Source: a virus. From it: a DNA stretch of 64,000 nt. The stretch spans positions 3,496 through 67,495 of IMG/VR virus record IMGVR_UViG_3300025536_000012. One strand, 5' to 3'. The position numbers and the translations under genes were made by a program. The notes below the pieces were generated by a model. That model saw nothing but the letters and a program-made list of their open reading frames with translations. It was not told the DNA's origin and did no database searches. Of this stretch, positions 16,856 through 63,819 are shown one piece after another; within the stretch, counting starts at the first letter, position 1; the number at the start of each line of letters is the position of its first letter.

Positions 16856-16863
16856 CTTATCCC
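16856..16863 (-). promoter_or_regulatory. conserved promoter-like motif GGGATAAG (class A)
   Basis: Coding-strand GGGATAAG. The TAA stop codon of the upstream gene is embedded in the motif. Confidence 0.45.
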
Positions 16864-16864
16864 T

Positions 16865-18940
16865 TCAATGTCGGAGGAACCGTACGAACTCTCGAAGCAC
16901 CACTTCGAGCAAGGCTTGTCCTATCTCAATTGCGGGCACTCGACGCCAGAAGGAAGGAGGACCGAACATCTCGAGAGCGTCTGCATCCGTGATTTCGTTT
17001 CCAAGGATGACGGTATAGATCATCACCTTCTTCGTTCGTGCGTACTCAATCTCCTTCCGAACGAAACCCATCAACGCTTCTCTAGAAATGTCCTTGCCGT
17101 CGACCTTGAATTGGGTTGGATTACCGTCAGTGAGAAGAAATAACCTCTTCTTCATTCCAGGCGGAGTGCTCGATGCGAGGTGCTTCACCGCAACGTGAAT
17201 TCCCGTGTGTGTGGGAGTCATGCCATCACATGACACCGGTATAGTGCTCTTCTGGTTCGCGTAGAGACCCTGTGCCTCCACCTCAGTCGCTAAATAACCA
17301 TCACAATCCTTGTGGTACTTGTAGATCCACACCTCACCACCGTTTGTGAGGGCAGCGATCTTTTCTTTGATCGTGGGATAGACACCAAAGTCCTTTCCTA
17401 TGGCTCCTCGAAAACCCCACAGATTTCCGCGTACGAATGGATAGTCTAGAGCTCGCTTGAGCATCTCAGATCCGATGCAGACGTAGTTGAATGGATTGCC
17501 GGTCATGGACCCTGACATGTCACAAAGCGTCAGATAGGAGAACCCGCGATCAAATCCGTCGTCCTCGAATACTGCATCATCTTGGCCATCCATTCGATAT
17601 TGGATCATTGCCTGTACATCGATTTCATCTCCGTCGTCAACAAGTCTGGAGATCTTTTTGCCGATGAACTTCGCAAAGACCGAGCGCATCCGATCAATTT
17701 GCTCTTCTTCATCGAGGGGAATGACGATGCGAGCATTGGGCGAGATGTGTTTGGGCTCTACATCGGCGATGAGCACCTTGGCAGCAGCTTCGGTAAGCAG
17801 AAACTGGTTCTTGCTGAGCTCTCCTTCCGATGCTCTCTGAAGTGCCTTGATTGCGCCTTCCATATCTCCATCGACTGGAACCTTGAGCCCCATAGATTGG
17901 AGTGTGGGGACTTCTTCCTGTTTCCCCTGCATCGGCATGTTGAAGATCTTGGCCAGCGCCGCCTCATCAGAGATCTGTAGCTTGTGGAGAGGGTTTACTG
18001 TCTTGTCGTGCTGGCTGAGCTGGTAGTGCTCTTGGTCTCGACGGAACGTGTGTGCTCGGTCAGAGAGCTGCTGCGCTGCCTCATCTCTGGTTTCGGGCCG
18101 TGCCTGCGACTGTGGAGATTCTCTATCGTCGCTCTTGTCTCCACTTTCCTGCTGCTCTTCCTGTCCTTCACCTTTTTCTTCTTCCTCGGGAGGATTGATG
18201 AGTCGTTCCAAACACTGCTCGAGGAACCAGCGCACAACGGCCAGCATATTGGCCGCACCACGTCCCTTCACAGCCTCTGTAGCCTTACGAGCTAGCGGGA
18301 CTAGATCGTGAAAAGGTCCTTTTCTCCTATTGAGATTCTCGGCATCCAGAGCCACGCCGAAGATCCAAGAGATGAAGTTCTCATTGAGGTCTGGAGCAGC
18401 CTCTGCGAGCTCCTTCCACTTCAAGGCGATCTCTCCTGCTGAACCTGGATAGACGAGAGACCACAAACTGTTCACGCGTAGATCGTCGAAAGCCTCAACG
18501 ATCTGACGAATCAACACCTCTACGTGAGCTCCGAAATGTGCTGAGTACATCGTCACGAACCTGTGAAACAGAGCCGGAGACGATTTGAATATGATGTGAC
18601 TCCACTCGTGCTCGAAGCTGCGATAGGCGTACATCATGCCGCAGCGATAGCAGGACATCTCTGTTCCTGGACGAATAATGGCTTCTCGTCGTGCCATCGA
18701 AGTATGCCCACAACTCAGAAGGCACTCCACCGGGCCATACACCTCGATTACTTTCTGGATCACGACCTGGCTGAAATTCACAGCCACGAAACCGACGATG
18801 TTGGTGCTCGAGACCTTGTCTTCTTTGAGGACGATCTTCTTATCGAACAATCCGTTGAAGATGTGGTTGGTTTTGTAGAAGGGGTCCTTGCTTGGGATGT
18901 TGAACTCTGGATCTACGTACTCAGACAGCGGTCGTTTCAT
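16865..18940 (-). CDS. CobT-like VWA-domain protein with N-terminal HExxH motif (691 aa)
   Basis: MIDAS-like LTLCDMSGSMTG (DxSGS) places a VWA domain at the C-terminus. HEWSH zinc-hydrolase-like motif and an acidic E/Q-rich linker. Confidence 0.65.
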   Translation of the reverse strand: MKRPLSEYVDPEFNIPSKDPFYKTNHIFNGLFDKKIVLKEDKVSSTNIVGFVAVNFSQVVIQKVIEVYGPVECLLSCGHTSMARREAIIRPGTEMSCYRCGMMYAYRSFEHEWSHIIFKSSPALFHRFVTMYSAHFGAHVEVLIRQIVEAFDDLRVNSLWSLVYPGSAGEIALKWKELAEAAPDLNENFISWIFGVALDAENLNRRKGPFHDLVPLARKATEAVKGRGAANMLAVVRWFLEQCLERLINPPEEEEKGEGQEEQQESGDKSDDRESPQSQARPETRDEAAQQLSDRAHTFRRDQEHYQLSQHDKTVNPLHKLQISDEAALAKIFNMPMQGKQEEVPTLQSMGLKVPVDGDMEGAIKALQRASEGELSKNQFLLTEAAAKVLIADVEPKHISPNARIVIPLDEEEQIDRMRSVFAKFIGKKISRLVDDGDEIDVQAMIQYRMDGQDDAVFEDDGFDRGFSYLTLCDMSGSMTGNPFNYVCIGSEMLKRALDYPFVRGNLWGFRGAIGKDFGVYPTIKEKIAALTNGGEVWIYKYHKDCDGYLATEVEAQGLYANQKSTIPVSCDGMTPTHTGIHVAVKHLASSTPPGMKKRLFLLTDGNPTQFKVDGKDISREALMGFVRKEIEYARTKKVMIYTVILGNEITDADALEMFGPPSFWRRVPAIEIGQALLEVVLREFVRFLRH

Positions 18941-19941
18941 ACCGCTGCCCTAGTGCTGTTCCACTTCTCCTTGGCCTTGAATCCGGCAAAGCTTGAGCTG
19001 ATTCGAGCCGCCACGGTCTCTTTGTCCTTGCCCTCGAACTTGTGGAAGAGCATCTGCAAGGCCGATTCGGGCCCTAGAAGCAGGATGGTCCTCAATAGCT
19101 TCACCACGTCTCGAGTAGAGAGGGCATAGCTGAGGCTGTGTCTCTTCTCTCTGGTCTCAGCGGCCAACGTGGTGCAACCCAGAACGAAGGCATCGAAAGC
19201 AACTGGATCCATACCCACCGGTATAGGTACATTGGCTTCCAAAATGGCCTTCTCTTGGCTCTGTGTGGGGTAACCGATCTCAACCTCTACCCATCTAGAC
19301 CGGAAGTCTTCATTGAGATCGTAGGTGCCTCCGTAGAGAGACGGATTCATGAGACCAACAGCCCAAATCTGAGCTCCAGCTCTCAAGCGATAGGTCTTGC
19401 CAGCTTGAGGAATGGATACCGACTTACGGAAATCGAGAAACTCATTGAGCTGCTTTTGTGTCTGAGGTGTGAGGGCATTTACCTCTTCGAAGGCGATGAT
19501 GGCTCGACCGTACTCGTTGGCAACATCGATGGCGGTGGCCATGCTGCCCAACATGAAGGGCGTCTCACTACCTTTGAAGAAGAAGTTACCGATCAAATCT
19601 TTCTTCTTGATATCTTCACTACACGGTACAGTGATGGTTGGAGTTTGTGTAGTCGCCGCAAGAGCGATGAGGGAGAGGGATTTACCATCTCCTTTGGGCC
19701 CCCGTACAAGTAGATTCTCGTTGAACATCAGCTTGTGGTAGAGGGGAATCAGGTTGAAGACATCCACGTATGGAGGTGTGGAGGTGTACATGAAGTCTTC
19801 GATAGGGGATCGCACAATGGAGATATCTGACTCTCCGTTAGACATCTCGAGTTTCAACGAGGCGAACTGAGATGGAGTGAGCTCGCTCAACCACTTTTTC
19901 CACATAGACATTTCTTTCTCCTGGCAAAAAATGAGGCGCAC
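18937..19941 (-). CDS. MoxR/CobS-like AAA+ ATPase (334 aa)
   Basis: Walker A LLVRGPKGDGKSLS, Walker B-like AIIAFEEVNAL. ATGA overlap with the downstream VWA partner, a typical arrangement. Confidence 0.7.
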   Translation of the reverse strand: MRLIFCQEKEMSMWKKWLSELTPSQFASLKLEMSNGESDISIVRSPIEDFMYTSTPPYVDVFNLIPLYHKLMFNENLLVRGPKGDGKSLSLIALAATTQTPTITVPCSEDIKKKDLIGNFFFKGSETPFMLGSMATAIDVANEYGRAIIAFEEVNALTPQTQKQLNEFLDFRKSVSIPQAGKTYRLRAGAQIWAVGLMNPSLYGGTYDLNEDFRSRWVEVEIGYPTQSQEKAILEANVPIPVGMDPVAFDAFVLGCTTLAAETREKRHSLSYALSTRDVVKLLRTILLLGPESALQMLFHKFEGKDKETVAARISSSFAGFKAKEKWNSTRAAV

Positions 19942-19969
19942 AAGCCGCCCCTTAGAATCTCAGATCTCA

Positions 19970-20740
19970 TCAGATCATCGTTATGGTCCAGGGAAACGAT
20001 TCCTGAACCAACATACGGAAGCCCGAATCTATCAAATCCTGTCGACTTCCGGTTTGCCCAGACCCGCCCACACAATTCCCCCCGATTCTACGAGAGTTGT
20101 AGTTGATCGGACCTCCGAGCGAGTTGGTATCTCGCTTGAGTAAAACGTTAGATGCCGGCACCCAGAACAGCACATTGCTGAACGTTGGAATCGGAGACGT
20201 ACCAATCGCATTGACAAACCCGTTACCACTACACCCGGTGGTGATGTAGAAGATCTCAGGCGCAGGAATCGAGAGGACAATGAAGTCCTTTGGAGCCTGC
20301 GATGTGTTCTGTGTTACCTGGTGGCCGTAGAATCCGGCAACAAGAGGATCCGAGGCTCGGTAGTTGGCCGAGACCGGAAGACCGAGCTCCCGTCCATCCA
20401 TCGTCGGACCGCCTGCAATCAGTATCAGTCCCGATCCGGCAGGACCAGCCGGGCCTTGCGGTCCAGTCGCTCCAGTTGCACCCGTGGCCCCGGTAGCACC
20501 AGTGGCACCTTGAGGACCCTGACTGCCGGTATCGCCCTTCGGTCCCTGAGGTCCTTGCGGACCAGTAGCTCCAGTAGCGCCGCTACTACCCATAGCGCCG
20601 GTAGAACCCATAGGACCTTGAGGACCGGTATCTCCCTGTGGTCCCTGAGGTCCTTGGGGCCCCACAATATCTCCAGTATCAGTCGCATCGCTGCCACATC
20701 CCATCACGCATGCCATCAGAACAATAATCACCTTCGACAT
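19970..20740 (-). CDS. collagen-like repeat lipoprotein (256 aa)
   Basis: About 30 G-X-Y triplets ([19 protein letters not shown]...GATGATGATGATG). N-terminal signal with lipobox-like [11 protein letters not shown]. Globular C-terminal domain. Confidence 0.7.
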
Positions 20741-20776: not shown

Positions 20777-21472
20777 TTACGAGTGGTTTGCCTCGCCGAA
20801 GGCAGTCTCGTTGTTCTCAGATTGAGAACGGTTATGTGGCTCTACCATCGTCACTTGCTGGACGATATCATCGAACCATGCCTGATCTGTAGCAAGACCG
20901 AGAACGGCCTCGTCACATAGCTCCTTGGTAATCGCGAAAAACTTCTCGCTGAAGACCTTGTCGGGCGCATGCTCATGCATTGCGAGCACTGCCGTGACCA
21001 GACCCTCCCGAAGGATTGTCTGCGGAGTGACCGCATAGTCTTCGAAATAGGGAATGATTGGGCGGTAGACACTCCCGATCACTTTCCATTGCCCTTTTGG
21101 ATGAGGAGCTTGTGTGCTCCTCCATCCGTCTGATCCAATGGCCAGCCACAAATGACTCAACTTCTTCTCTCTCCACCACACCCACAACCCATCCCGATCC
21201 TTTTCGATCTTGAAACCAGCCCTCGCGAGCGTTGCGCACTCGTCTCTCGACAAGCGGTCAACAAAGCCTTCTTCTTGCCATTTGGCATGTAGAGCGGACG
21301 CAGCCCCCTGCTGCTGTCGCTGCACAAGAACGACCTCGTTGATGGCAAGCCCGTCATCAACACGAGCTCGAGGCTCGTATTGTGGTGCATTGTCTAGAAG
21401 CCTCTGCACCATTGGCTGAATTCGGGTTACTCTGGGCCCTCTACCATCGGGCCTTTCGCGTGCGTGTTCCAT
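20777..21472 (-). CDS. hypothetical protein (231 aa)
   Basis: ORF downstream of promoter motif 21525-21534 with SD caggaggaataggtcATG. Confidence 0.55.
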   Translation of the reverse strand: MEHARERPDGRGPRVTRIQPMVQRLLDNAPQYEPRARVDDGLAINEVVLVQRQQQGAASALHAKWQEEGFVDRLSRDECATLARAGFKIEKDRDGLWVWWREKKLSHLWLAIGSDGWRSTQAPHPKGQWKVIGSVYRPIIPYFEDYAVTPQTILREGLVTAVLAMHEHAPDKVFSEKFFAITKELCDEAVLGLATDQAWFDDIVQQVTMVEPHNRSQSENNETAFGEANHS

Positions 21473-21524: not shown

Positions 21525-21534
21525 CGCTTATACC
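21525..21534 (-). promoter_or_regulatory. promoter-like motif variant GGTATAAGCG plus leader hairpin
   Basis: Coding strand GGTATAAGCG, then ACCCG..CGGGT hairpin and CTTTTTTCAGGAGG; matches the consensus leader layout. Confidence 0.4.
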
Positions 21535-21820: not shown

Positions 21821-21993
21821 GTTTCCTCAGGTAGCTAGAGAAGGTTGGAGCATCCTGCATCTTCCCTCAGTACCTTGGTTCACGCCGCATCACTCACTGG
21901 TGGAGGGTGTTCCCTGGTACGTCGCTGGGTAGACCGGCTTTTCAGCTCCTGGTCTCTGTTTCCAGAGCCAACAGCTTATGCCGTGTGTTGTGA

Positions 21994-25039: not shown

Positions 25040-25432
25040 CTAGGGTAGCTGAGAACCAGCATCCGTTTTCTTGGATTTGAGATGGTTAGTGATGAACGTC
25101 GTGAAGCTCTTCGAGTCCGCTGGTTTGTCAATGCGAGGAACGTTCTTCAAATCGACAGTAGTCAGTATGCTCTCGGAGCTCGAGTGGAATAGGAAGCTCG
25201 ACAACATGTGAGGCATGTGTTCCGCGAGCCATCGGTAGAACTCGATACCATCCATCTCTGGCATCCGTATATCGCTGACGATCAAATCGATATTCTCGTT
25301 CGAGGTTTTGAGAAACTCTCGAGCAAGACTGCCATCGCAGAAGCCGATGACCTTGTATCTCAACCGAATGAGCAGCTTAGTTGTGGCACGCCGAACAAGA
25401 TCATCGTCTTCAACTAGAAGAACCGTCACCAT
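25040..25432 (-). CDS. stand-alone response-regulator receiver (REC/CheY-like) domain protein (about 130 aa)
   Basis: MVTVLLVEDDDLV...IDLIVSDIRMPEMDG...KP carries the acidic pocket, the phospho-acceptor Asp and the conserved Lys-Pro. SD ttttggaggtcttATG. No output domain. Confidence 0.7.
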   Translation of the reverse strand: MVTVLLVEDDDLVRRATTKLLIRLRYKVIGFCDGSLAREFLKTSNENIDLIVSDIRMPEMDGIEFYRWLAEHMPHMLSSFLFHSSSESILTTVDLKNVPRIDKPADSKSFTTFITNHLKSKKTDAGSQLP

Positions 25433-25507
25433 AAGACCTCCAAAAAACGCCGAAGGGGAAGGGGCGTTCAAGGCCTTATGCCTCCAAAAGGGGTATTATT
25501 TTAGTGC

Positions 25508-30467: not shown

Positions 30468-30476
30468 CCTTATCCC
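30468..30476 (-). promoter_or_regulatory. promoter-like motif GGGATAAGG
   Basis: Immediately downstream of terminator 30480-30540. Confidence 0.45.
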
Positions 30477-40903: not shown

Positions 40904-40912
40904 CTTATCCCC
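40904..40912 (-). promoter_or_regulatory. promoter-like motif GGGGATAAG
   Basis: Followed by TGGAGG and ATG at the conserved spacing. Confidence 0.45.
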
Positions 40913-48821: not shown

Positions 48822-48831
48822 GCTTATCCCC
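48822..48831 (-). promoter_or_regulatory. promoter-like motif GGGGATAAGC
   Basis: Followed by a GGCATCTCCGATGCC hairpin. The stop codon of the 29-aa ORF lies inside the motif. Confidence 0.4.
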
Positions 48832-49510: not shown

Positions 49511-49520
49511 GTATTATCCC
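49511..49520 (-). promoter_or_regulatory. class-B promoter-like motif GGGGATAATA with conserved leader
   Basis: GGGATAATACTTATGAACGAGCACACCCCTTGTGCTTG...CAGGAGG: motif, AGCACA..TGTGCT hairpin, then SD. Confidence 0.45.
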
Positions 49521-49630: not shown

Positions 49631-49990
49631 TTAAATTGCCCTACTAAAGCGCGACAGCCAGGCCCTAAATTTTTTCTTGAGGGGTGCTAGGAGGCGGCGC
49701 AGTAAATTTTTCTTGGGAGTTGGTTGAGCAGTACACGCTAGCAAGTCGTCAAGCAGCTCCTTGGACATCTTCTCTGAAAGATAGAGTCTAGGTCGCGCAG
49801 GATGATTGCTCCAACCATCGATCTTCTTGAAGGTCTTATTTAAGGCTTCTTTGGTCCAAGGATCTGTAGACATAACCTCGAGCTCGAAGAAGGCTTCTCC
49901 GTACTTGAAGAAGTCAGCCTCGTTGTCGAAGTCGCAACGACAAGGGAACAGCTTGCAGCCACATTTAGAACAAGGCATAAATAACTCCAT
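49631..49990 (-). CDS. Cys-rich protein with basic amphipathic C-terminus (about 119 aa, start at MELFMPC)
   Basis: CSKCGCKLFPCRC cluster. Its start codon overlaps the divergent plus-strand start by 2 nt. Its 3' end runs through A/T-rich direct repeats. Confidence 0.4.
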   Translation of the reverse strand: MELFMPCSKCGCKLFPCRCDFDNEADFFKYGEAFFELEVMSTDPWTKEALNKTFKKIDGWSNHPARPRLYLSEKMSKELLDDLLACTAQPTPKKNLLRRLLAPLKKKFRAWLSRFSRAI

Positions 49991-50920: not shown

Positions 50921-51436
50921 CTAGTAGTAGGTGAAGCTATCGAGCTTGGACTTCGTTCGTTCTTTGCAGAGGAGACCGAATGTCCTCTTCAAATCCTTCG
51001 GATGACCTACCGCAGCAGCAAGAACATGCTCGGCGTTGTAGACGTAGCGATGGTTGGGTGATCCTTCCATCTGTCCGGCTTGCCAGCGGTCGTTTTGATT
51101 CCACTCGATGAATTCTGCGTGGAAACCGTCTGTATTGGTGAAGCCCATCTGGTAAAGCCAGTCAGAGAAGTCCTCTCCATCGAATCCCATATCCTTGATC
51201 TGAGCTCCGCATTTAGAGCAGAACTCTGAGGATGGGTCTTTCTCTTTCGAAGCTGTACAACACTTCTTGAGCTTAGGTTTCCTGTCGATCATGAACTGCT
51301 CTTTGAGGAACGTGGCCAGATCTACCAAGGCTTCTTTGGCATCTTTGAACTGCTCCTCTGAGACCCACGGCATGTATGAGAGGCTCTGACTCTCGACGTA
51401 TCCAAAATTCAGAACGAAGGTGTAGCGTTTTCCCAT
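50921..51436 (-). CDS. hypothetical protein with Cys pairs (171 aa), probably leaderless
   Basis: GGGATAAGCCTGTATG: the ATG lies 5 nt after the motif with no SD. CCTASKEK...CSKCG zinc-ribbon-like. Confidence 0.5.
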   Translation of the reverse strand: MGKRYTFVLNFGYVESQSLSYMPWVSEEQFKDAKEALVDLATFLKEQFMIDRKPKLKKCCTASKEKDPSSEFCSKCGAQIKDMGFDGEDFSDWLYQMGFTNTDGFHAEFIEWNQNDRWQAGQMEGSPNHRYVYNAEHVLAAAVGHPKDLKRTFGLLCKERTKSKLDSFTYY

Positions 51437-51440: not shown

Positions 51441-51449
51441 GCTTATCCC
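51441..51449 (-). promoter_or_regulatory. promoter-like motif GGGATAAGC directly abutting a start codon (leaderless class)
   Basis: ATAAG-cctgt-ATG spacing places the ATG at the position expected for +1. Confidence 0.45.
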
Positions 51450-51898: not shown

Positions 51899-52521
51899 AG
51901 GGATTCTCCTTGAGGGATGGAGTCACTTGTGGCACCCTCGTTGATCGCCCGAATCGTACGTTCCGCCCGTTCGACAATTCTTTCGATACGTCGACGGTGC
52001 GTTGTTCCGCACGATTCGCAGTTGGAGAAGGTTCCCCAGCCAGTCTTGTTCTTGGCTCCCCATCCCATCCCCAAGTACTCTTCTCGAGTAACGACTACGC
52101 CGCAGCTCCGGCAGAACTTCCGATCCTTCGTCGAGGTCGTGCAGCACTTGCGGAGCTTCGCCATCTTGATGCGAGGTCCCGTATGTTTCTGCCCGCACGC
52201 CGTACAGAAGACGGTCGTAGGATCGATACCCTCATGGATCTCTTTGAGGGCAGCTTCCGTGATCTTATCCGAGACCACTTTCCTATCGACGCCCTCGACC
52301 GCCCAACCGAACTTCCAGAGCCGGTCCTTGTGATCTCGGAACCTGCGGCTGAGCCCGAAGCCTTTGATGCCGAGACGGAACATCTGCGCCAGATTGGGGG
52401 CGCCCGACCCCTCATAGATGTCGGCTAGGACCAACATCGATTCGTGATCGCATGCCCGCGCTGAGAGAAGAACCGGCTCTGGAGTACCATCTCCAAGAAT
52501 CGGACTGATCACTTTCATCAT
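51895..52521 (-). CDS. hypothetical protein with zinc-ribbon-like Cys clusters (208 aa)
   Basis: Class-B promoter, leader and SD upstream. CTACGQKH...CRSCG...CESCG. Confidence 0.55.
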   Translation of the reverse strand: MMKVISPILGDGTPEPVLLSARACDHESMLVLADIYEGSGAPNLAQMFRLGIKGFGLSRRFRDHKDRLWKFGWAVEGVDRKVVSDKITEAALKEIHEGIDPTTVFCTACGQKHTGPRIKMAKLRKCCTTSTKDRKFCRSCGVVVTREEYLGMGWGAKNKTGWGTFSNCESCGTTHRRRIERIVERAERTIRAINEGATSDSIPQGESL

Positions 52522-52559
52522 CGCCTCCTAAAGTAAGCCCAAGGAAGTGGGCTCCACTA

Positions 52560-52569
52560 TATTATCTCC
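52560..52569 (-). promoter_or_regulatory. class-B promoter-like motif GGAGATAATA with conserved leader hairpin
   Basis: GGAGATAATATAGTGGAGCCCACTTCCTTGGGCTTACTTTAGGAGG. Confidence 0.45.
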
Positions 52570-52659
52570 TAGGATGTCTAGGAATTGCCGATTTGGGGCT
52601 CTGTAGTGGGCTCTATTTACCAGGCAAAGAAATCCAGACAGCTTCAAGGCTGCTGGATG

Positions 52660-53643: not shown

Positions 53644-53684
53644 CGACGCCCTTCCTAAAAGATGAAGCGGAATTGCCTCACAAT

Positions 53685-53694
53685 CTATTATCCC
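53685..53694 (-). promoter_or_regulatory. class-B promoter-like motif GGGATAATAG with conserved leader
   Basis: See the promoter-family finding. Confidence 0.45.
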
Positions 53695-53990
53695 GCCAAA
53701 TAGCCAGGAATTGAGGAATGGGCAAAGAACGAAGGGTCATCCTAGACGAACCTTCTCTATTCGTTTTCTACTACAGGCCATACGAACTTCTGCCCGTAAT
53801 TACGATCAATCTGCGCGATGTCCGGCATACGCACGTTCCTGAGCGTTCATCAAACTGCCGCGGGGAGCTCAGTCCAAGGCCAGCAGTGACTTCCAGAGCT
53901 CATTCTCGAGATTGTCCGTTAGCCCAAGTCTTAGAAGCTTAGGACCTTACACAGTAAGAGCAACCGCATACCAAGGATGGAAGCGCCACC

Positions 53991-54404: not shown

Positions 54405-54703
54405 GGTTGTGGATCATCCCCGATGCAGTCGTAGCAAACGATGTCATGATCACCAGAGCCGTACGTATAGGGCTTACCTGGAATGGAACGATTGACGATA
54501 GGTGTTTTGCACCTGCCGCAAGGACCCATCACCTCGTACTCGTATTCCTCCGTCTTTTGTAGATGCTCTTCAGTCCCAACCCAGTCTGGAGACATATCGG
54601 GCTTCTTAGAAGACGCGAGTTGAACTGCCTCCTCGTAAGAATCAGCTTCAATAATGACCTCAGCAGTGACAGTCTTGGTGAAGTGAACGCGAAAGTTATT
54701 CAC
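54401..54703 (-). CDS. hypothetical protein with C-terminal Cys cluster (100 aa)
   Basis: GPCGRCK...CYDCIGDD. Confidence 0.45.
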   Translation of the reverse strand: MNNFRVHFTKTVTAEVIIEADSYEEAVQLASSKKPDMSPDWVGTEEHLQKTEEYEYEVMGPCGRCKTPIVNRSIPGKPYTYGSGDHDIVCYDCIGDDPQP

Positions 54704-54885
54704 GCGACGACCTCTACTTCCGCAACGATGTACGAGGATCCGTACGATCCTTCACGTTCTGAGACCTTGAGCCTGATCTTGGAGTTCTGATTGATTGGGT
54801 TATATCCGAAGAGTTCCCCGAGGGTGATCGTTTCTTCTTGGTCTTTTGGCCCAGAGAACCCAATGGTCAGAGATAGTTTCTTCAT
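54700..54885 (-). CDS. small protein (61 aa), probably leaderless
   Basis: GAGATAAGATTGTATG puts the motif 5 nt before the ATG. Confidence 0.4.
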   Translation of the reverse strand: MKKLSLTIGFSGPKDQEETITLGELFGYNPINQNSKIRLKVSEREGSYGSSYIVAEVEVVA

Positions 54886-54890: not shown

Positions 54891-54898
54891 CTTATCTC
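54891..54898 (-). promoter_or_regulatory. promoter-like motif GAGATAAG (leaderless class)
   Basis: Immediately downstream of the terminator cassette at 54900-54938. Confidence 0.45.
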
Positions 54899-55975: not shown

Positions 55976-56464
55976 TTACTCACGGGTCACCAGATCGTCC
56001 TTGAGTGGGTACCACTCCTCTTGGTCACCGAGGCGTGCATTGAGTTGTTCGACCGACTCGGTATTGAGATGAAGACCTTCGCGAACGATACCAACATACA
56101 CCGTCAACCAGAAATTGCGGATGGTACCGTCTGGATGTTTGTATCCGATGATCTCCGCAGCGTGAGCAAAATGCATCACCCAGTGCATGGGATAGTGGTC
56201 TAGCCCCTTCTTGAGATCTACGAAGTCGTTCTCCGAGATCGTCGTCTTCATGTACTTATCAACCTCGCTATCCATGACGTTAATCATGGCCGGGTAGAAC
56301 AAGACCGAACGTAGCTTCCTCGTGAACTTCTTGCTGACATCTTCTTTAGGAATACCGTCGCATCCACGAAGAGCGGATAGAAGAACTGCCTGTTCCTTGA
56401 ACGAGCAGCACTCGGCCAACCAAGGACGGACGACCGATTTACCAACGTGTAGTTTTCTCTGCAT
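55976..56464 (-). CDS. hypothetical protein (162 aa), probably leaderless
   Basis: GAGATAAGCAAGTATG puts the motif 5 nt before the ATG. Confidence 0.5.
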   Translation of the reverse strand: MQRKLHVGKSVVRPWLAECCSFKEQAVLLSALRGCDGIPKEDVSKKFTRKLRSVLFYPAMINVMDSEVDKYMKTTISENDFVDLKKGLDHYPMHWVMHFAHAAEIIGYKHPDGTIRNFWLTVYVGIVREGLHLNTESVEQLNARLGDQEEWYPLKDDLVTRE

Positions 56465-56468
56465 ACTT

Positions 56469-56477
56469 GCTTATCTC
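56469..56477 (-). promoter_or_regulatory. promoter-like motif GAGATAAGC (leaderless class)
   Basis: Third copy with ATAAG-N5-ATG spacing. Confidence 0.45.
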
Positions 56478-56538
56478 AGCAAAGAAAACCGTATCCATTT
56501 GGGTATGCTAATTTTTTGGTAAGTGATACTGTCTGTTC

Positions 56539-57933
56539 ATGAACTCGGTAGAGCTTGCGGCCTTCAGCGACGAGCTGATGAAGATTGCTGCCGACAAGGA
56601 AAAACCCTTCTGGCAAAAAGCACTGCCATTTGCTGCGGCGGCCGGTGCTGGAGTCCTTGCCTACAAAGGCTTGAGGACACCATCCTTTTCCAAGAACCCG
56701 GCGTTACGGAAAGTTCAAGAGCTCGCATCTAGCAAAGGCTTCCACCGTATCGTCGACGTGACTCCTGATGGAACTGGTGGATTTCTTCGTCCTGTTGCTG
56801 ATGCTCAGGGCAAGCTCTCGCCATTGAACAAGGCCAAGCTGTTCCTGAACGAAGGAACTACAGAAGCCATTCCGATCACCTACACCCCGAACCAGGCGGG
56901 TAATTACTCCACCAAGGTTGTTGGTCAGAAAGGTCCGAGACAGGTAGAGGGTGTCGTTCATGGACGTCCTGATATTTACGGACGTGACAAGGCGGTTCGC
57001 GGAGGTGTGGATGTCGAAGGTACCCCTGAGGTGCAGAGAGCGATGACCAACCTTGCTGCGGGTGGAAAGAGGAGTGAAGCAGATCTCCTCAGCAAGCACG
57101 CCCCTGAAGCAATCCCAGAGACCTTCACGGATCTATCTCCGATGTTCAAGAAGCTCCCGAAGGATCGGCAGCAAGCCATCAACGAGCTCCGTAACAGAAT
57201 CAGAGCAGCCCATGGAGAGAATGTTCTACTGAAGCCGAACCAGGGCCTGTCTTCTGGAGGCAAATTTCCTCGATCCAATCAAGACTGGGGAGCTCAACTT
57301 CGGACCTACGACGAACACATGGCAGATCCAGTCAAGAGAAAGGCGTATCGAGCTCTGAAGGGTGAGGACAATGCTCTTGCCGATTATTCGAAAGAACATG
57401 GATTGTACGAGGGCAGTGTGCTTCACAATGCGCTCAAAGATCCGAAGTCGATGCTTGCTCAGAAGATAGTAGACAATCCAATGGGCGAGTGGAGAGTGCA
57501 TACTGTTGCAGGAGAAGCTCCGAGAGGGTTGATGACTCCCAGGTTCGCTAGCAACCCAGCAAAGACTCTAGCTGCTCGTGCCGGTGTTGGAGATGCCAGC
57601 ACCAAAGAACTCCAGCAATTCGTAGAGCAGGATATTCTACAGAAACTACCAAAAAATTATCGCGAGGGTAACTACGCCTTCGATGTCATGCCACATCGGA
57701 AGCCTGATGGCTCCATCGGGTTCAAGACCATCGAGATGAATCCAGCGGAGAGAGCGAAGAGCCAGAGTCTATCTGGTGGAGGATCGGGGTTCTTGGATAC
57801 AGCAGCCTCTCCGTTCTCTGGACTAAAACATTACCGCGCCGTAACTGGCAGACATACACCCCTAGTTGCTGGACTAGGAGCCGCCGGAGCCGCAGGCGCT
57901 ACCGGAGCAGTTACAGGGACCGTGGGCGAATGA
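56539..57933 (+). CDS. ATP-grasp superfamily ligase (RimK/GshB-like) with N-terminal extension and Gly/Ala-rich tail (464 aa)
   Basis: NVLLKPNQGLSSGGK matches the ATP-grasp P-loop-like VIKP..G.GG. EWRVHTVAGE matches the (D/E)xRV.VVGGE strand. YAFDVMPHRKPDGSIGFKTIEMNP matches the G.D......G..(V/I)E(V/M)N..P catalytic region. Confidence 0.6.
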   Translation: MNSVELAAFSDELMKIAADKEKPFWQKALPFAAAAGAGVLAYKGLRTPSFSKNPALRKVQELASSKGFHRIVDVTPDGTGGFLRPVADAQGKLSPLNKAKLFLNEGTTEAIPITYTPNQAGNYSTKVVGQKGPRQVEGVVHGRPDIYGRDKAVRGGVDVEGTPEVQRAMTNLAAGGKRSEADLLSKHAPEAIPETFTDLSPMFKKLPKDRQQAINELRNRIRAAHGENVLLKPNQGLSSGGKFPRSNQDWGAQLRTYDEHMADPVKRKAYRALKGEDNALADYSKEHGLYEGSVLHNALKDPKSMLAQKIVDNPMGEWRVHTVAGEAPRGLMTPRFASNPAKTLAARAGVGDASTKELQQFVEQDILQKLPKNYREGNYAFDVMPHRKPDGSIGFKTIEMNPAERAKSQSLSGGGSGFLDTAASPFSGLKHYRAVTGRHTPLVAGLGAAGAAGATGAVTGTVGE

Positions 57934-58393
57934 TCAGTCCTTCGTTGTTCCATCGCTTCTCGAACTGAGAGATCGAGCTCTCACGGAATAACTGACTTTT
58001 CCAACTTGGATCAGACAGGTAGACCGTGTCCTCTTTCTCGTCGATGGCGTAGACAACTCCGTAGTGATCTCCGTCCAGGCCAACCATCACTACATTGTCT
58101 GTAGCGATAGCCTTTACCAGATCTCTCCAGGACATCTTCGGTCTTCGGCCAACACGCATCCCATGAGAACGTAGGAAGCGTATGACTGGAGCCTCTGCTG
58201 TCCCGTCCGAATCCGTCTTGAGCTTCTCGTACACCTCTCTGTAGCTGACATCGACTCCGAAGAACGAAGTGATGGCATATACACAACACGGCCCGCAGGT
58301 GTACGACGTGAACTGAAACTTACGCGGAAAGTCTGCAAACCCGACGAGAGAATCTGATCTCTTATCGGGGATGCCGAGAAGTAGACCCAGCAT
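57911..58393 (-). CDS. C39-like (papain-fold) cysteine peptidase domain protein (160 aa)
   Basis: YTCGPCCVYAITSFFG matches the Peptidase_C39/C39_2 catalytic-Cys block (N.CGP..L.M.L.YYG). DGDHYGVVYAID supplies the His block. Its 3' end overlaps the ATP-grasp gene convergently by 23 nt. Confidence 0.6.
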   Translation of the reverse strand: MLGLLLGIPDKRSDSLVGFADFPRKFQFTSYTCGPCCVYAITSFFGVDVSYREVYEKLKTDSDGTAEAPVIRFLRSHGMRVGRRPKMSWRDLVKAIATDNVVMVGLDGDHYGVVYAIDEKEDTVYLSDPSWKSQLFRESSISQFEKRWNNEGLIIRPRSL

Positions 58394-58597: not shown

Positions 58598-58640
58598 GAA
58601 CCCTCCTCCTAAAGAATGAAGCGGAAGTGCTCCATCTAGA

Positions 58641-58649
58641 TATTATCCC
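58641..58649 (-). promoter_or_regulatory. class-B promoter-like motif GGGATAATA with conserved leader hairpin
   Basis: GGGATAATATCTAGATGGAGCACTTCCGCTTCATTCTTTAGGAGG. Confidence 0.45.
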
Positions 58650-58684
58650 TCCATATACAGGGTAATTTCAGGTAGGATTCGCGA

Positions 58685-59047
58685 ATGCCGACCAAGGTAA
58701 CAGAATCGACTGAAGAAGAAGTCAGAGACCATTACATCAAGTTTTTAGAGGGACTAGTCGATAAGGCAAAATCTGGAGAGATGGTCTTTCGAAGTATCAA
58801 CCAAGCAATGCCGTATGTGCAGGTCTATGATAACGAGACGGAGAAGTGGGAACACTTCCGCATCGGAAGTAGAACTCTGGGTTGGATCTACGAATGTCCA
58901 GCTCAGGACGAATTGGAACGAGCTCGATTAAAGCAGTTCTTGGTTGACCATCCCAAAGCAGAAGTCATCAAAGAAAAGAGTGCCGAAGATACCGCTAGAG
59001 AGTTACGCGCTTTGGTTGAAGGTAGCAAAAGAAACGGGCTCGAGTAG
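58685..59047 (+). CDS. hypothetical protein (120 aa), plus strand
   Basis: ORF divergent from the class-B promoter region. Followed by a T-rich bidirectional terminator-like sequence (ccctctgatctgttttttcg). Confidence 0.45.
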   Translation: MPTKVTESTEEEVRDHYIKFLEGLVDKAKSGEMVFRSINQAMPYVQVYDNETEKWEHFRIGSRTLGWIYECPAQDELERARLKQFLVDHPKAEVIKEKSAEDTARELRALVEGSKRNGLE

Positions 59048-59167
59048 AACCCTCTGATCTGTTTTTTCGTCCGTGCTACGCGTGCACATCCATGCGCTCA
59101 ACAGCTGTAAAGGAGCTCATACCATTGCTAGATGGCACCGACCTCTGCCAGCGATCTTCGATTTCAA

Positions 59168-60769: not shown

Positions 60770-60779
60770 GCTTATCTCC
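60770..60779 (-). promoter_or_regulatory. promoter-like motif GGAGATAAGC (second copy GAGATAAC at 60789-60798)
   Basis: Directly downstream of terminator cassette 60799-60830. Confidence 0.45.
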
Positions 60780-60798
60780 TGCAAGTTTGTTATCTCGC

Positions 60799-60830
60799 AA
60801 AAAACGGAGGCTGTCCTCCTCTATTCTTCA
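60799..60830 (-). terminator. conserved terminator cassette
   Basis: AGAATAGAGG-AGGACAGCCTCC-GTTTTTTGC. Confidence 0.6.
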
Positions 60831-61825: not shown

Positions 61826-61863
61826 TGTTTCCTCCTAAAGCGCGAAGAAGTGCGCTCCATAAA

Positions 61864-61872
61864 GATTATCCC
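61864..61872 (-). promoter_or_regulatory. class-B promoter-like motif GGGATAATC with conserved leader hairpin
   Basis: GGGATAATCTTTATGGAGCGCACTTCTTCGCGCTTTAGGAGG. Confidence 0.45.
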
Positions 61873-61896
61873 GTCTAATGGACCTGATTTATCGAG

Positions 61897-61930
61897 CAAA
61901 GAAACGGAGCCGAGCTCCTCTGTTCTTACT
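61897..61930 (-). terminator. conserved terminator cassette
   Basis: AGAACAGAGG-AGCTCGGCTCC-GTTTCTTTGC. Confidence 0.6.
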
Positions 61931-63193: not shown

Positions 63194-63206
63194 ATGCCCT
63201 CCAGTT

Positions 63207-63215
63207 GCTTATCCC
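63207..63215 (-). promoter_or_regulatory. promoter-like motif GGGATAAGC
   Basis: Downstream of terminator 63216-63246. Confidence 0.45.
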
Positions 63216-63246
63216 AGCAAAAAAACGGGTCGATGACCCTCTATTC
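63216..63246 (-). terminator. conserved terminator cassette
   Basis: AGAATAGAGG-GTCATCGACCC-GTTTTTTTGC. Confidence 0.65.
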
Positions 63247-63370
63247 TTTTGTTTCGCAGATCGATCCCCAGCACACAGAGGCTTCGAAATCCCAAACCGG
63301 TCTTAGTTCGACACGATTTACCATCACAACATCAGCCACGAACGGATCTCTTCCGGATCGCGACCAGCGT

Positions 63371-63628
63371 TCAACCAGAACGAGCAGACGGTGGCTCCGC
63401 CCTTTTGATATCGTCGTCAGACATAAACCATTCGATGGCCATCATAACCTTCGTTTGGTGTAGAGATGGGGGAATGTGCTCGACCTGAACGTCATGGAAC
63501 GCGAGATGTTGAAGGCGATTGATCAATCGCATCTTCTTCGTCAACGAGGTCCATCCCTTCCAACAACGATCGCATGCGCATTCATCGTGACAAGGCGCCT
63601 CTTCGTCTACAGCCTGCCCTTCGTTCAT
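63371..63628 (-). CDS. Cys/His-rich small protein (85 aa)
   Basis: CHDECACDRCW motif. Confidence 0.4.
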   Translation of the reverse strand: MNEGQAVDEEAPCHDECACDRCWKGWTSLTKKMRLINRLQHLAFHDVQVEHIPPSLHQTKVMMAIEWFMSDDDIKRAEPPSARSG

Positions 63629-63792
63629 TTGGTCTTCACCCGCATGAGCTCGATGTTGGCGATGGCGACCTTCAGTAGCGCGATGTGTTGCGGATAGGTC
63701 TTCGGTTTCTTCTTCCGAGTCTCCATCGACCCATGAACCTTCTTGAGAAGAACCTCTGTAATGCCTAGAAGCATATCTTCAACTTCCGTCAT
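63625..63792 (-). CDS. small hypothetical protein (55 aa, below cutoff)
   Basis: GGAGATAAGGGCGTAGGAGGGAAATTTATG upstream; ATGA overlap with the next gene. Confidence 0.35.
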   Translation of the reverse strand: MTEVEDMLLGITEVLLKKVHGSMETRKKKPKTYPQHIALLKVAIANIELMRVKTK

Positions 63793-63810
63793 AAATTTCC
63801 CTCCTACGCC

Positions 63811-63819
63811 CTTATCTCC
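63811..63819 (-). promoter_or_regulatory. promoter-like motif GGAGATAAG
   Basis: Downstream of terminator 63829-63862. Confidence 0.45.

What the first reader, a model, noticed from the sequence alone, without database searches (positions are those of the whole stretch)
16856..63819. Family of at least 18 conserved promoter-like elements (coding-strand GGGATAAG or GGGATAAT) exclusive to the minus-strand gene array, some giving leaderless genes
Upstream of minus-strand genes the motif G(G/A)GATAA(G/T) recurs at 16856, 21525, 30468, 34032, 40904, 48822, 48920, 49511, 51441, 52560, 53685, 54891, 56469, 58641, 60770, 61864, 63207 and 63811. It is followed at fixed spacing by TGGAG. This TGGAG is either the SD (GGGGATAAGAAAATGGAGG..., GGGGATAAGAACGTGGAGG..., GGGATAAGCAACTGGAGGG...) or the start of a conserved leader. 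In three cases the start codon itself occupies that position with no SD (GGGATAAGCCTGTATG, GAGATAAGATTGTATG, GAGATAAGCAAGTATG). The -10-like ATAAG/ATAAT is then 5 nt from the AUG, so transcripts starting there would be leaderless. Several upstream genes end with their TAA stop inside the motif (GGGA-TAA-G), for example 16865, the 29-aa ORF at 48824 and the region near 63817. The motif is absent from the plus-strand structural module, suggesting an early or middle promoter class with its own regulation.
Basis: seen in the sequence. Interest (0 to 1): 0.6.

Follow-up and report, generated by a model that had tools for sequence, protein, structure and literature searches.

The report
Lineage-specific promoter family, jumbo phage
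A 212-kb uncultured phage marks about 20 of its non-structural transcription units with one conserved 8-base signal (GRGATAAK) that behaves like a promoter lacking the usual second element and seems to start messages right at the ribosome-binding site or at the start codon itself; this is a new example of a familiar kind of phage-specific promoter rather than a new type of system.

Summary
G(G/A)GATAA(G/T) occurs 24 times in the window against about 7 expected, 23 of them on the minus strand. In 84 kb of the source contig it is 28:1, with 21 of 28 sites in the 12% that is non-coding. It is the top enriched word upstream of minus-strand genes and is absent from the structural module. Positions outside the 8-mer also carry signal: T then a purine 5-6 nt downstream. 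Many sites follow an intrinsic terminator or sit at divergent gene junctions, where a promoter is logically required. Four genes (three in the window) have their only possible start codon at the predicted start site and no Shine-Dalgarno. Relatives with 73-90% identical PARP keep the motif on the gene strand (29:2 pooled over six relatives), several at orthologous positions, and repeat the leaderless layout. A sister lineage has canonical TATAAT in the same layout. Best reading: a lineage-specific, -35-independent, extended -10-type promoter class for non-structural genes, giving leaderless, 5'-SD-terminal or hairpin-led mRNAs. The polymerase or sigma is unidentified: none is recognisable in the 94 kb visible of 212 kb. 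The stop-codon sub-claim and the HTH/sigma suggestion are not supported. No transcription start sites were measured.

The parts
63811..63818 (-). Site GAGATAAG (class B). Follows a terminator; T13-A14 then AGGAGG; ATG 18 nt after the motif.
63208..63215 (-). Site GGGATAAG directly abutting the terminator tail TTTTTTTGCT. TGGAGG at positions 13-18, ATG 14 nt after the motif. Orthologous site in L199 at 19975.
61865..61872 (-). Class-A site GGGATAAT with box TAAATCAG at 61884-61891 (spacer 11) and a 39-nt hairpin leader (61826-61859). Orthologous site in L199 at 21405.
60771..60778 (-). Site GAGATAAG 28 nt after terminator 60806-60819. A variant GAGATAAC lies at 60789-60796. Long leader (172 nt).
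58642..58649 (-). Class-A site GGGATAAT in a divergent junction (58598-58684). Box AAATTACC at 58661-58668; leader 58598-58636.
56470..56477 (-). Site GAGATAAG in a divergent junction, just after a hairpin plus T-run. ATG of gene 55976-56464 at motif position 14 (leaderless candidate).
54891..54898 (-). Site GAGATAAG after terminator GGAGCTTGCTCC plus T-run. ATG of gene 54700-54885 at position 14 (leaderless candidate).
53687..53694 (-). Class-A site GGGATAAT. Box CAATTCCT at 53706-53713 (spacer 11); leader 53644-53681.
52561..52568 (-). Class-A site GAGATAAT. Box CAATTCCT at 52580-52587 (spacer 11); leader 52519-52555 with TGGAGC at positions 13-18.
51442..51449 (-). Site GGGATAAG after a T-run (TTTTTTTGCC). 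ATG of gene 50921-51436 at position 14 (leaderless candidate).
49513..49520 (-). Class-A site GGGATAAT in divergent junction 49460-49805. Box CAATTATC at 49533-49540 (spacer 12); leader 49460-49507.
48823..48830 (-). Site GGGATAAG followed by 240 nt without a called gene. That stretch shares hairpin plus CCTTCTGTCTCTGA with the leader after 16863.
40904..40911 (-). Site GGGATAAG. TGGAGG at positions 13-18, ATG 19 nt after the motif.
39165..39172 (-). Site GAGATAAG 23 nt after terminator (39195). GTGAAGGAG then ATG 18 nt after the motif.
36879..36886 (-). Site GAGATAAG inside the last codons of gene 36873-37133, 41 nt upstream of gene 36451-36837. Possible internal promoter; position 13 is A.
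34032..34039 (-). Site GGGATAAG. TGGAGG at positions 13-18, GTG 14 nt after the motif. Heads the operon that ends with the vault-protein gene. Probable counterpart in L010 at 3815.
30469..30476 (-). Site GGGATAAG after a terminator, followed by TGAAGG. Heads the operon containing GyrB. Orthologous site conserved in L010 at 7496.
16856..16863 (-). Site GGGATAAG 1 nt after the TGA stop of the 691-aa VWA-like gene, followed by a 217-nt leader. Orthologous site in L010 at 13758.
21527..21534 (-). Variant GGTATAAG with T13-G14 (cgttTGAACCC), 54 nt upstream of gene 20777-21472. Probable family member.
21975..21982 (-). Variant GGCATAAG with T13-G14. Probable family member.
25475..25482 (-). Variant GGCATAAG with T13-G14 (gcctTGAACG), 42 nt upstream of the receiver-domain gene 25040-25432. 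Probable family member.
50921..51436 (-). 171-aa gene, leaderless candidate. The in-frame stop 9 nt upstream is the motif's TAA. No SD, and no alternative start with an SD.
54700..54885 (-). 61-aa gene, leaderless candidate by the same criteria.
55976..56464 (-). 162-aa gene, leaderless candidate by the same criteria.
63227..63239 (-). Example of the conserved intrinsic-terminator family: A(A/G)AA(T/C)AGA, a GC-rich stem, then GTTT(T/C)TTTGC. Other members at 61906-61918, 60806-60819 and 59036-59052.

Best explanation
GRGATAAK is the core (-10-region) element of a lineage-specific promoter class. It drives the non-structural, minus-strand transcription units of a 212-kb uncultured phage. No fixed -35 element accompanies it. 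If GATAAK is taken as the -10 hexamer, the invariant G two bases upstream occupies the position of the G in an extended -10 (TGn). Transcription most likely starts 6 nt after the 8-mer, at the purine that follows a conserved T (a pyrimidine -1 / purine +1 start). That single register explains three kinds of transcript. (i) Leaderless mRNAs, where AUG or GUG is the first codon: three genes in the window and one just outside. (ii) mRNAs whose 5' end is the Shine-Dalgarno sequence itself (5'-GGAGG...), with 9-19-nt leaders. (iii) A subclass (GRGATAAT plus a CAATTCC-like box 11-12 nt upstream) with 39-53-nt leaders that begin with a stem-loop. Units are delimited by a conserved family of hairpin plus U-tract terminators, so the array is a string of terminator-promoter-gene cassettes. 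Shown here: the statistics, placement, register and conservation. Inferred: promoter function, the start site, and the enzyme. The most likely enzyme is a bacterial-type multisubunit RNAP carrying a sigma70-family specificity factor, either the host's own or one supplied by the phage and not yet seen.
For: Enrichment and strand bias: 28:1 in 83.7 kb, with 21 of 28 sites intergenic (P = 1.7e-14). GGGATAA is the top k-mer upstream of minus-strand genes. The motif is at background level (0.02 per kb per strand) in about 1 Mb of structural-module DNA from 80 relatives. At least 12 sites lie 0-35 nt after an intrinsic terminator. Four lie in divergent junctions (49460-49805, 53644-53717, 56465-56538, 58598-58684), where no upstream same-strand transcription can supply the gene. 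Unselected positions carry signal: T13 in 15 of 20 sites (P = 1e-6), purine-rich 14-20 with no C; pooled with relatives, T13 is 30 of 52 and purine 14 is 42 of 52. Four genes start exactly at position 14 with no SD and no other possible start, and the same terminator-motif-5 nt-ATG unit recurs in relative L201 at 20873. The class-A leader hairpins begin within 0-3 nt of position 14. Relatives show conservation: L199 8:0, L201 7:2, L202 2:0, L203 3:0, L095 6:0, L183 3:0 (29:2 in total) across GC of 47-60%, with orthologous sites in diverged flanks. For sigma70-type recognition: the ATAAT core is 5 of 6 matches to TATAAT in class A, and GATAAT is the -10 of lambda PR (my own knowledge). The sister lineage L185/L192 has canonical GTAGTATAAT-N6-ATG and GTATTATAAT-N6-ATG in the same leaderless layout. 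The hairpin plus U-tract terminators are of the kind bacterial RNAP obeys.
Against: No transcription start site, RNA or protein-binding data exist. Class B (15 of 20 sites) has G where sigma70-family primary factors need the flipped-out T(-7), which argues against an ordinary housekeeping sigma. No sigma, anti-sigma or RNAP gene was recognisable in the 94 kb seen (Pfam hits on record; Pfam and PHROGs scans). However, 118 kb of the genome could not be read. Canonical sigma70 promoters are depleted in the array (2 against 12.8 expected), so nothing shows host housekeeping RNAP is used at all. The host is unknown. Not every unit has the motif, for example the starts at 24579 and 19911. Start codons in relatives sit at positions 12-15 rather than strictly 14, so the start site is uncertain by 1-2 nt.
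Confidence: 0.7

Rival explanations
1. The motif is a promoter, but it is read by a phage-encoded RNA polymerase, virion-delivered or made early. RNAP-encoding jumbo phages offer the parallel: their early operons carry a roughly 10-nt conserved motif centred near -10.
For: The review PMC7598289 describes this architecture for phiKZ/AR9-type phages: a short conserved motif near -10 and no -35. The AR9 late promoter also has a conserved T/purine at the start site. In this phage canonical sigma70 promoters are depleted, the motif is confined to one phage clade, G occupies the -7-equivalent position, and cryptic RNAPs can hide inside structural proteins (PMC10770324).
Against: No RNAP-like domain or NADFDGD-type catalytic signature appears in the 94 kb of this genome or in about 1.3 Mb of family loci. 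The capsid is not phiKZ-like; its best cultured match is Salmonella phage Arash at 27%. A sister lineage uses canonical TATAAT in the same layout. The motif is not AT-rich overall (GRG prefix).
Confidence: 0.2
2. The motif acts at the RNA level inside polycistronic transcripts. It could be an endoribonuclease processing site, a translational operator, or a weak SD (GGGA/GAGA, 9 nt before the 'leaderless' AUGs).
For: An RNA-level element would also be strand-specific and intergenic. GGGA can pair with the anti-SD with one wobble, at acceptable spacing (inference from the sequences). T4 RegB-type nucleases target SD regions (my own knowledge).
Against: Many sites sit immediately downstream of strong intrinsic terminators, and four sit in divergent junctions where no upstream same-strand transcript is expected. 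All other genes use strong GGAGG-type SDs, so a GAGA 'SD' would be an outlier. Distance to the start codon ranges from 5 to 240 nt, which does not fit a translational element.
Confidence: 0.05
3. The motif is an operator for a phage or host DNA-binding regulator and not the core promoter. The true promoter elements would be elsewhere.
For: Short conserved words upstream of many genes can be regulator sites. An uncharacterised winged-helix-like 223-aa protein (window-equivalent 70584-71255) is conserved next to PARP in ours, with neighbours of the same size at that position in L199 and L201 and visible sequence similarity in L183 (inspection of sequences; gene tables).
Against: The motif is asymmetric and non-palindromic. 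It keeps a fixed register with start codons and with leader 5' ends. No other promoter-like element is shared by these regions: no -35 or -10 elsewhere in the profile, and the sigma70 scan is depleted.
Confidence: 0.04
4. The motif is a compositional or annotation artefact, for example a stop codon (TAA) plus spacer plus SD composite, or recent duplication of one cassette.
For: The motif contains TAA, is often followed by GGAGG, and two terminators (60806 and 66142) are identical.
Against: Only one called gene uses the motif's TAA as its stop. The flanks of the sites are unrelated in sequence. None of 100 shuffles reaches the observed count. Sites are conserved in relatives whose flanks have diverged.
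Confidence: 0.01

Closest known systems
Extended -10 / -35-independent sigma70-family promoters, including lambda PR (-10 GATAAT) and PL (GATACT)
   Same: The ATAAT core sits at the right distance (5-6 nt) from a pyrimidine/purine start. An invariant G lies two bases upstream of the hexamer, where the extended -10 G sits. There is no need for TTGACA. Class-A hexamer GATAAT is identical to that of lambda PR (my own knowledge).
   Different: No T at -15. Most sites have G rather than T at the -7-equivalent position. An invariant G replaces T(-12). The whole 8-mer is nearly invariant, unlike ordinary host promoters.
T4-type phage promoter classes: late promoters TATAAATA read by gp55/gp33, and middle promoters with a MotA box at -30 plus a -10
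   Same: An 8-bp -10-region-only element defines a temporal or functional class. The class-A sites add a box centred near -30 (CAATTCC, 11-12 nt upstream of the 8-mer), formally like a MotA-box promoter.
   Different: The sequences are unrelated. No gp55-, gp33-, MotA- or AsiA-like protein was detected by PHROGs or Pfam in 94 kb. The class here covers non-structural genes, not late genes.
[quoted passage not shown]
   Same: A roughly 10-nt highly conserved, bioinformatically detectable motif centred near -10 lies upstream of presumed early operons, differs from phage to phage, and has no -35 element.
   Different: Those motifs are AT-rich and are read by virion multisubunit RNAPs. Here no RNAP genes were found in the part of the genome seen, and the phage is not related to the phiKZ group by its capsid.
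Leaderless mRNAs (lambda cI from PRM; widespread in Actinobacteria and Deinococcus-Thermus, where a -10 hexamer lies 6-7 nt before the start codon)
   Same: A -10-like hexamer lies 5 nt before ATG, with no SD and no possible upstream start. The same layout occurs in relatives (L201) and, with canonical TATAAT-N6-ATG, in a sister lineage (L192/L185).
   Different: Leaderless status is inferred from sequence only. One case would start with GUG, which is a poor leaderless initiator in E. coli (my own knowledge).
5'-terminal stabilising stem-loops and 5'-proximal SD stabilisers of bacterial and phage mRNAs (for example ompA; Bacillus STAB-SD elements)
   Same: Class-A leaders begin with a stem-loop within 0-3 nt of the predicted 5' end. 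Class-B mRNAs would begin with GGAGG.
   Different: Function is untested. Fold z-scores are modest (-0.6 to -2.1). Only one clear compensatory change was seen (L197 851 against L199 739).

Membership tests
Canonical sigma70 (housekeeping) promoter | -35 hexamer resembling TTGACA, 16-18 bp upstream of the -10 hexamer | tested here: not met
   No information content at -35 in 20 own sites or 52 pooled sites. The consensus scan found 2 sigma70-type promoters in 46-64 kb against 12.8 +/- 3.5 in shuffles.
Canonical sigma70 (housekeeping) promoter | -10 hexamer TATAAT with A(-11) and T(-7) | tested here: inconclusive
   GATAAT (5 class-A sites) matches 5 of 6 positions, including A(-11) and T(-7). 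GATAAG (15 of 20 sites) lacks T(-7).
Extended -10 promoter | T(-15)G(-14) immediately upstream of the -10 hexamer, -35 dispensable | tested here: inconclusive
   G at the -14-equivalent position (motif position 1) is invariant. T at the -15-equivalent position is not conserved (4 of 20). There is no -35 element.
Promoter (generic) | Primary transcript 5' ends a fixed short distance downstream | not testable with these tools
   No RNA data. Indirect support comes from the conserved T13/purine 14, leaderless ATGs at position 14, and leader hairpins starting at positions 14-16.
Promoter (generic) | Located where transcription must initiate (after terminators, in divergent junctions), on the gene strand | tested here: met
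   At least 12 sites lie within 35 nt after a hairpin plus T-run, and 4 lie in divergent junctions. Strand ratios are 28:1 in this phage and 29:2 in relatives.
Jumbo-phage virion-RNAP early promoter (phiKZ/AR9 type) | Phage encodes split beta/beta'-like RNAP subunits | tested here: inconclusive
   None found in 94 of 212 kb by Pfam hits on record, PHROGs or a catalytic-motif scan.
Jumbo-phage virion-RNAP early promoter (phiKZ/AR9 type) | About 10-nt AT-rich conserved motif centred at -10 upstream of early operons | tested here: inconclusive
   There is a conserved 8-mer at -13 to -6 upstream of non-structural operons, but it has a GRG prefix and is not AT-rich overall (PMC7598289).
T4 late promoter | TATAAATA at -10 and a gp55/gp33-type factor | tested here: not met
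   The sequence differs. No PHROG or Pfam hit to such factors. The motif is absent from the structural genes.
Leaderless mRNA | Start codon at the transcript's 5' end with no SD | tested here: inconclusive
   The sequence criteria are met for genes 50921-51436, 54700-54885 and 55976-56464, plus 64080-64361 outside the window: no SD, in-frame stop 9 nt upstream, no alternative start. The 5' end was not measured.
Intrinsic (rho-independent) terminator | GC-rich hairpin followed by a T-run at gene ends | tested here: met
   31 found against 15.0 +/- 3.5 expected in 46-64 kb. They form a conserved family with an A-rich 5' flank and a GTTTxTTTGC tail.
sigma28/FliA-type promoter (TAAAGTTT-N11-GCCGATAA) | CGA core in the -10 element and TAAA in the -35 element | tested here: not met
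   Shares only GATAA and the 8-N11-8 geometry in class A. The C of the CGA core is G or A here, and the box is CAATTCC, not TAAA. The consensus is recalled from memory, so this is a lead only.

The most novel reading that the evidence does not exclude
The element is read by a specificity factor or polymerase of a kind not yet recognisable by sequence. The factor would be encoded by, or delivered with, this widespread family of roughly 200-kb environmental phages. It would prefer G at the position where all primary sigma factors need T(-7). The phage would use it to launch a whole programme of mRNAs that begin exactly at the Shine-Dalgarno sequence or at the AUG. That would amount to a compact promoter-to-ribosome design that bypasses host promoter rules.
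Probability: 0.3. Interest if true: 0.65.

Novelty: new member of a known kind. Interest (0 to 1): 0.4.

Why it matters
If correct, the motif gives a ready-made transcription map for the non-structural half of an uncultured jumbo-phage family that is common in soil, sediment and wetland metagenomes: more than 130 capsid relatives in IMG/VR and more than 200 PARP relatives. The map would hold about 20 promoters, their terminators, and leaderless and minimal-leader mRNAs. The motif also provides a sequence handle for finding the still unknown factor or polymerase that reads it, for example by looking for genes that co-occur with the motif across the clade. Finally, it supplies natural examples of promoters that place the mRNA 5' end directly on the SD or the AUG. 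As a kind of feature, lineage-specific phage promoter motifs are well known, so the general significance is moderate.

Tried and rejected
1. Near-identity DNA search of 20 kb against GenBank phages found nothing. Protein searches with capsid and GyrB found only very distant cultured relatives, so there is no host and no annotated model genome.

2. Rfam at gathering thresholds and a tRNA scan of the window found nothing.

3. Anchoring on the 464-aa plus-strand ORF in IMG/VR gave no hit.

4. A class-A promoter-plus-leader DNA pattern in IMG/VR matched only unrelated AT-rich contigs, i.e. chance.

5. GyrB-anchored and vault-protein-anchored relatives at 57% identity or less lack the motif. The element is therefore confined to a subclade.

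6. The JGI strain contigs are 99.9-100% identical and useless for footprinting.

7. Host inference from mis-binned MAG contigs gave mixed phyla, with 3 of 8 delta-proteobacterial. I rejected this as evidence.

9. A Sigma70_r4-only protein was found in relative L183, next to a motif site. It has no homologue in our 94 kb or in the syntenic relatives, so it cannot be linked to the motif.

One 10-kb step was obtained through the PARP search and showed rIIA-like, rIIB and ThyX genes but no sigma or RNAP.

11. A catalytic-motif scan for cryptic RNAPs was negative.

12. The two long leaders sharing CCTTCTGTCTCTGA are only a two-copy element with little other similarity. I did not pursue them.

Full report
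**What the window is.** The window is about one third of a 212,233-bp metagenomic contig (ENA ERZ27300258, k141_24263). Nearly identical pieces occur in JGI sample 3300001798. It is a tailed jumbo phage. Plus-strand genes from 1 to 15.2 kb include a major capsid protein and a sheath-like protein, and a terminase lies further left. From 15.2 kb to beyond 64 kb almost all genes are on the minus strand. They include a MoxR-type ATPase and VWA pair, a MazG-like protein, a receiver domain, GyrB, an 875-aa major-vault-protein homologue, an amidase and many small ORFans. Upstream of the window, on the same strand, lie a PARP-like protein, rIIB, an rIIA-like ATPase and ThyX. There is no close cultured relative: the capsid is 27% identical to Salmonella phage Arash. 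The capsid family is large in environmental data (131 IMG/VR loci). The host is unknown, because MAG bins holding capsid relatives span many phyla.

- GRGATAAK occurs 24 times against 6.8 +/- 2.7 expected, with 23 matches on the minus strand.
- I stitched the window to 10 kb on each side and used the database gene calls. In that 83.7 kb there are 28 minus-strand sites and one plus-strand site.
- 21 of the 28 lie in the 11.8% of sequence that is non-coding (P = 1.7e-14).
- The motif continues beyond the right end of the window (5 more sites). It is absent from the extra 10 kb on the structural side.
- A k-mer enrichment that knows nothing of the motif ranks GGGATAA first upstream of minus-strand genes (11 regions against 0.5 expected) and finds nothing comparable for plus-strand genes.
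- In about 1 Mb of structural-module DNA from 80 relatives the motif occurs at 0.02 per kb on both strands, which is background.
- 21527-21534 is a one-mismatch variant (GGTATAAG) that keeps the downstream signature, as do GGCATAAG at 21975-21982 and 25475-25482. The variant at 48920 is doubtful.

**Anatomy beyond the 8-mer.**
- Aligning the 20 clean intergenic sites shows no shared -35 element.
- Downstream, positions that the search pattern did not select carry information. Position 9 is A or C. Position 13 is T in 15 of 20 sites (P = 1e-6). Positions 14-20 are purine-rich with no C or T.
Examples are TGGAGG, TAGGAGG, TGTGAGG, TGAAGG, TGAAC and TATG.
- At least 12 sites lie 0-35 nt after a hairpin plus T-run. 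These terminators form a conserved family of their own: A(A/G)AA(T/C)AGA, a GC-rich stem, then GTTT(T/C)TTTGC.
- Four sites lie in divergent junctions between a minus-strand and a plus-strand gene.
- Five sites form a subclass ('class A': 49520, 52568, 53694, 58649, 61872). They have T at position 8, a CAATTCC-like box 11-12 nt upstream of the 8-mer, and 39-53-nt leaders of the form TGGAGC, hairpin, TTTAGGAGG.
- The leader hairpins start within 0-3 nt of position 14 and their stems differ in sequence. Folding gives the 5' hairpin as the best structure in 3 of 5 leaders. In the other 2, the CUUCC loop pairs with the SD instead. The z-scores are modest.

**Leaderless genes.** For genes 50921-51436, 54700-54885 and 55976-56464, and for 64080-64361 outside the window (a GTG start), the start codon sits at motif position 14.
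- The in-frame stop 9 nt upstream is the TAA of the motif, so no earlier start is possible.
- There is no GGAGG-type SD, although essentially every other gene has one.
- No downstream alternative start has an SD.
- The same register places the 5' end of other mRNAs on the first G of GGAGG, giving 9-19-nt leaders made only of SD plus spacer.

**Comparative evidence.** Most early-region proteins are too divergent to serve as anchors. GyrB or vault-protein relatives at 57% identity or less lack the motif. Relative L010/L095 (vault protein 61%, GyrB 65% identical) has six sites, all on the gene strand and all intergenic. Its sites after the vault-protein gene and after the VWA-like gene are orthologous to window sites 30476 and 16863, and its site at 3815 is a probable counterpart of 34039. 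A protein search with the PARP-like gene returned a graded series of relatives. Their contigs show:

| Relative | PARP identity | Sites (gene strand : other strand) |
|---|---|---|
| L199 | 90% | 8:0 |
| L201 | 80% | 7:2 |
| L202 | 74% | 2:0 |
| L203 | 73% | 3:0 |
| L183 (capsid 89%) | 60% | 3:0 |

- With L095 this totals 29:2 (P = 2e-7), in genomes whose GC ranges from 47% to 60%.
- Orthologous pairs keep the 8-mer while the flanks change. At window 63215 against L199 19975, a 7-nt insertion separates terminator and motif and the leader differs.
- At L197 16676 against L199 17559, the upstream sequence is unrelated.
- Window 61872 against L199 21405 is a class-A site with its hairpin leader.
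- At L197 851 against L199 739, the leader stem changes from GAAGCC/GGCTTC to GAAGCT/AGCTTC, a compensatory pair.
- L201 20873 is another terminator-motif-5 nt-ATG unit.
- Pooling 52 sites keeps T13 (30 of 52) and purine 14 (42 of 52), and again shows no -35.
- A sister lineage (L185/L192, vault protein 57-63% identical) lacks GRGATAAK. Instead it has GTAGTATAAT-N6-ATG, GTATTATAAT-N6-ATG and GTAGTAAGAT plus an SD leader. These are canonical -10 hexamers in the same -10-only, leaderless layout.

**Mechanism.** The placement after terminators and in divergent junctions, the strand specificity, the fixed register with start codons and leader 5' ends, and the conservation all fit a core promoter element. 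They fit RNA-level or operator explanations poorly.
- Taking GATAAK as the -10 hexamer puts the start 6 nt downstream, at a pyrimidine/purine step, and puts the invariant first G at the extended -10 position.
- GATAAT is a functional sigma70 -10 hexamer (lambda PR; my own knowledge), and the sister lineage uses TATAAT. I therefore favour a bacterial-type RNAP with a sigma70-family factor.
- Most sites have G at the -7-equivalent position, canonical sigma70 promoters are depleted, and the motif is clade-specific. So the factor may not be the host's housekeeping sigma.
- The literature gives a close formal parallel in RNAP-encoding jumbo phages. There, a roughly 10-nt motif near -10 marks early operons read by a virion RNAP, while jumbo phages without their own RNAP usually encode recognisable sigma homologues (PMC7598289). 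Cryptic RNAPs can also hide in structural proteins (PMC10770324).
- I found neither a sigma nor an RNAP in the 94 kb visible, and 118 kb could not be read.
- A Sigma70_r4-only protein sits next to a motif site in relative L183, but it has no counterpart in our phage or its syntenic relatives.
- The enzyme therefore remains open. I put about 0.55 on a sigma70-family holoenzyme and about 0.2 on a phage RNAP, within a probability of about 0.85 that these are promoters at all.

**What is not supported.** Upstream genes do not generally end with the TAA of the motif. The only called gene that does is outside the window. The protein at 45830-46363 is not a detectable sigma or anti-sigma factor. 'Early/middle' is an inference from gene content. 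Not all minus-strand units carry the motif.

**Verdict.** This is a genuine, statistically strong and evolutionarily conserved promoter-like family. It is a new member of the well-known kind 'phage lineage-specific promoter motif'. It has some attractive particulars: no -35, G at -7, 5' ends on the SD or the AUG, and paired conserved terminators. It also leaves one open question, namely what reads it. Interest is moderate.

Noticed in passing
window 63227-63239, 61906-61918, 60806-60819, 59036-59052, 49011-49024; beyond the window at 64009, 64387, 64974, 66142, 67668: The minus-strand intrinsic terminators form a conserved family: A(A/G)AA(T/C)AGA, a GC-rich stem, then GTTT(T/C)TTTGC. Two of them (60806 and 66142) have the identical hairpin GGAGGACAGCCTCC. 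The A-rich 5' flank makes several of them look bidirectional.
   Followed up: partly
window 61826-61859, 58598-58636, 53644-53681, 52519-52555, 49460-49507; L197 859-890 against L199 747-778: Leaders of the class-A sites begin with a stem-loop whose loop (ACUUCC, AAUUCC or CUUCCU) is complementary to the SD GGAGG. The alternative fold pairs loop with SD in 2 of 5 leaders. One clear compensatory stem change is seen between this phage and L199. This could be a 5' stabiliser or a translational switch.
   Followed up: partly
window 16639-16855 and 48583-48822 (minus strand): Two motif sites are followed by 217-nt and 240-nt stretches without called genes. Each starts with a short hairpin and the shared 14-mer CCTTCTGTCTCTGA, 33-37 nt from the motif. 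There is no Rfam hit. They may be long regulatory leaders or small RNAs.
   Followed up: partly
window 30561-33188 (-): An 875-aa homologue of the eukaryotic major vault protein (MVP shoulder domain at E = 3e-30, plus vault repeats) is encoded by the phage. Relatives occur in 462-735-kb 'huge phage' genomes (LR756500/501/503, about 40% identity) and in metagenomic contigs.
   Followed up: partly
window 56539-57933 (+) and hairpin 56490-56507: A 464-aa plus-strand ORF with no Pfam, PHROG or IMG/VR relative is embedded in the minus-strand array. It converges with, and overlaps, gene 57911-58393. A hairpin with T-runs on both strands sits in the divergent gap upstream of it. The ORF's reality and expression are unclear.
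   Followed up: no
L197 4878-11443 (source contig, upstream of the window's right end): ThyX, an rIIA-like HATPase protein, rIIB and a WGR-PARP protein lie in one long same-strand unit. The PARP-like protein has more than 200 relatives on phage-sized contigs, so it is a conserved marker of this phage group.
   Followed up: partly
L183 about 5428-5895 (+): The 191-kb relative encodes a 155-aa Sigma70_r4-only protein with a CxWxCxHH motif, just downstream of a GGGATAAG site. Its family has more than 2,000 members. Two of the top 120 carry an organism-bearing name, 'sigma factor-like helix-turn-helix DNA-binding protein' from Kofleriaceae (Myxococcota). It is not present in the visible part of this phage.
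   Followed up: yes
L184, L202 16461-20587, L203 15519-20776: Relatives carry large tRNA gene arrays (for example 23 copies of the T-arm word GGTTCGA in L184) where this phage has small ORFan genes. No tRNA was found in the window.
   Followed up: no
L192 636-660, L192 1829-1852 (= L185 832-855), L185 4536-4582: A sister lineage has canonical -10 hexamers preceded by GTA(G/T), either 6 nt before an ATG with no SD or upstream of the vault-protein gene. This suggests that -10-only promoters and leaderless genes are a trait of the wider group.
   Followed up: partly
window 19970-20740 (-) and 16865-19911 (-): A collagen-like (GxQ/GxT repeat) protein with tail-fibre PHROG hits, and a MoxR-type AAA ATPase plus VWA-domain pair, sit in the minus-strand array. 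The array is therefore not purely 'early' in gene content.
   Followed up: no
window 49207-49225: The only plus-strand match to the motif is one arm of a perfect palindromic hairpin (GTGGAGATATTATCTCCGC) followed by a T-run. It is probably a terminator and not a promoter.
   Followed up: no
L198 1080-1418 against L197 9744-9995: The near-identical JGI strain has a YpsA-like gene directly upstream of PARP, where the ENA contig has only an 83-aa reverse ORF call. This is strain-level variation, or a gene-call difference, at that junction.
   Followed up: no
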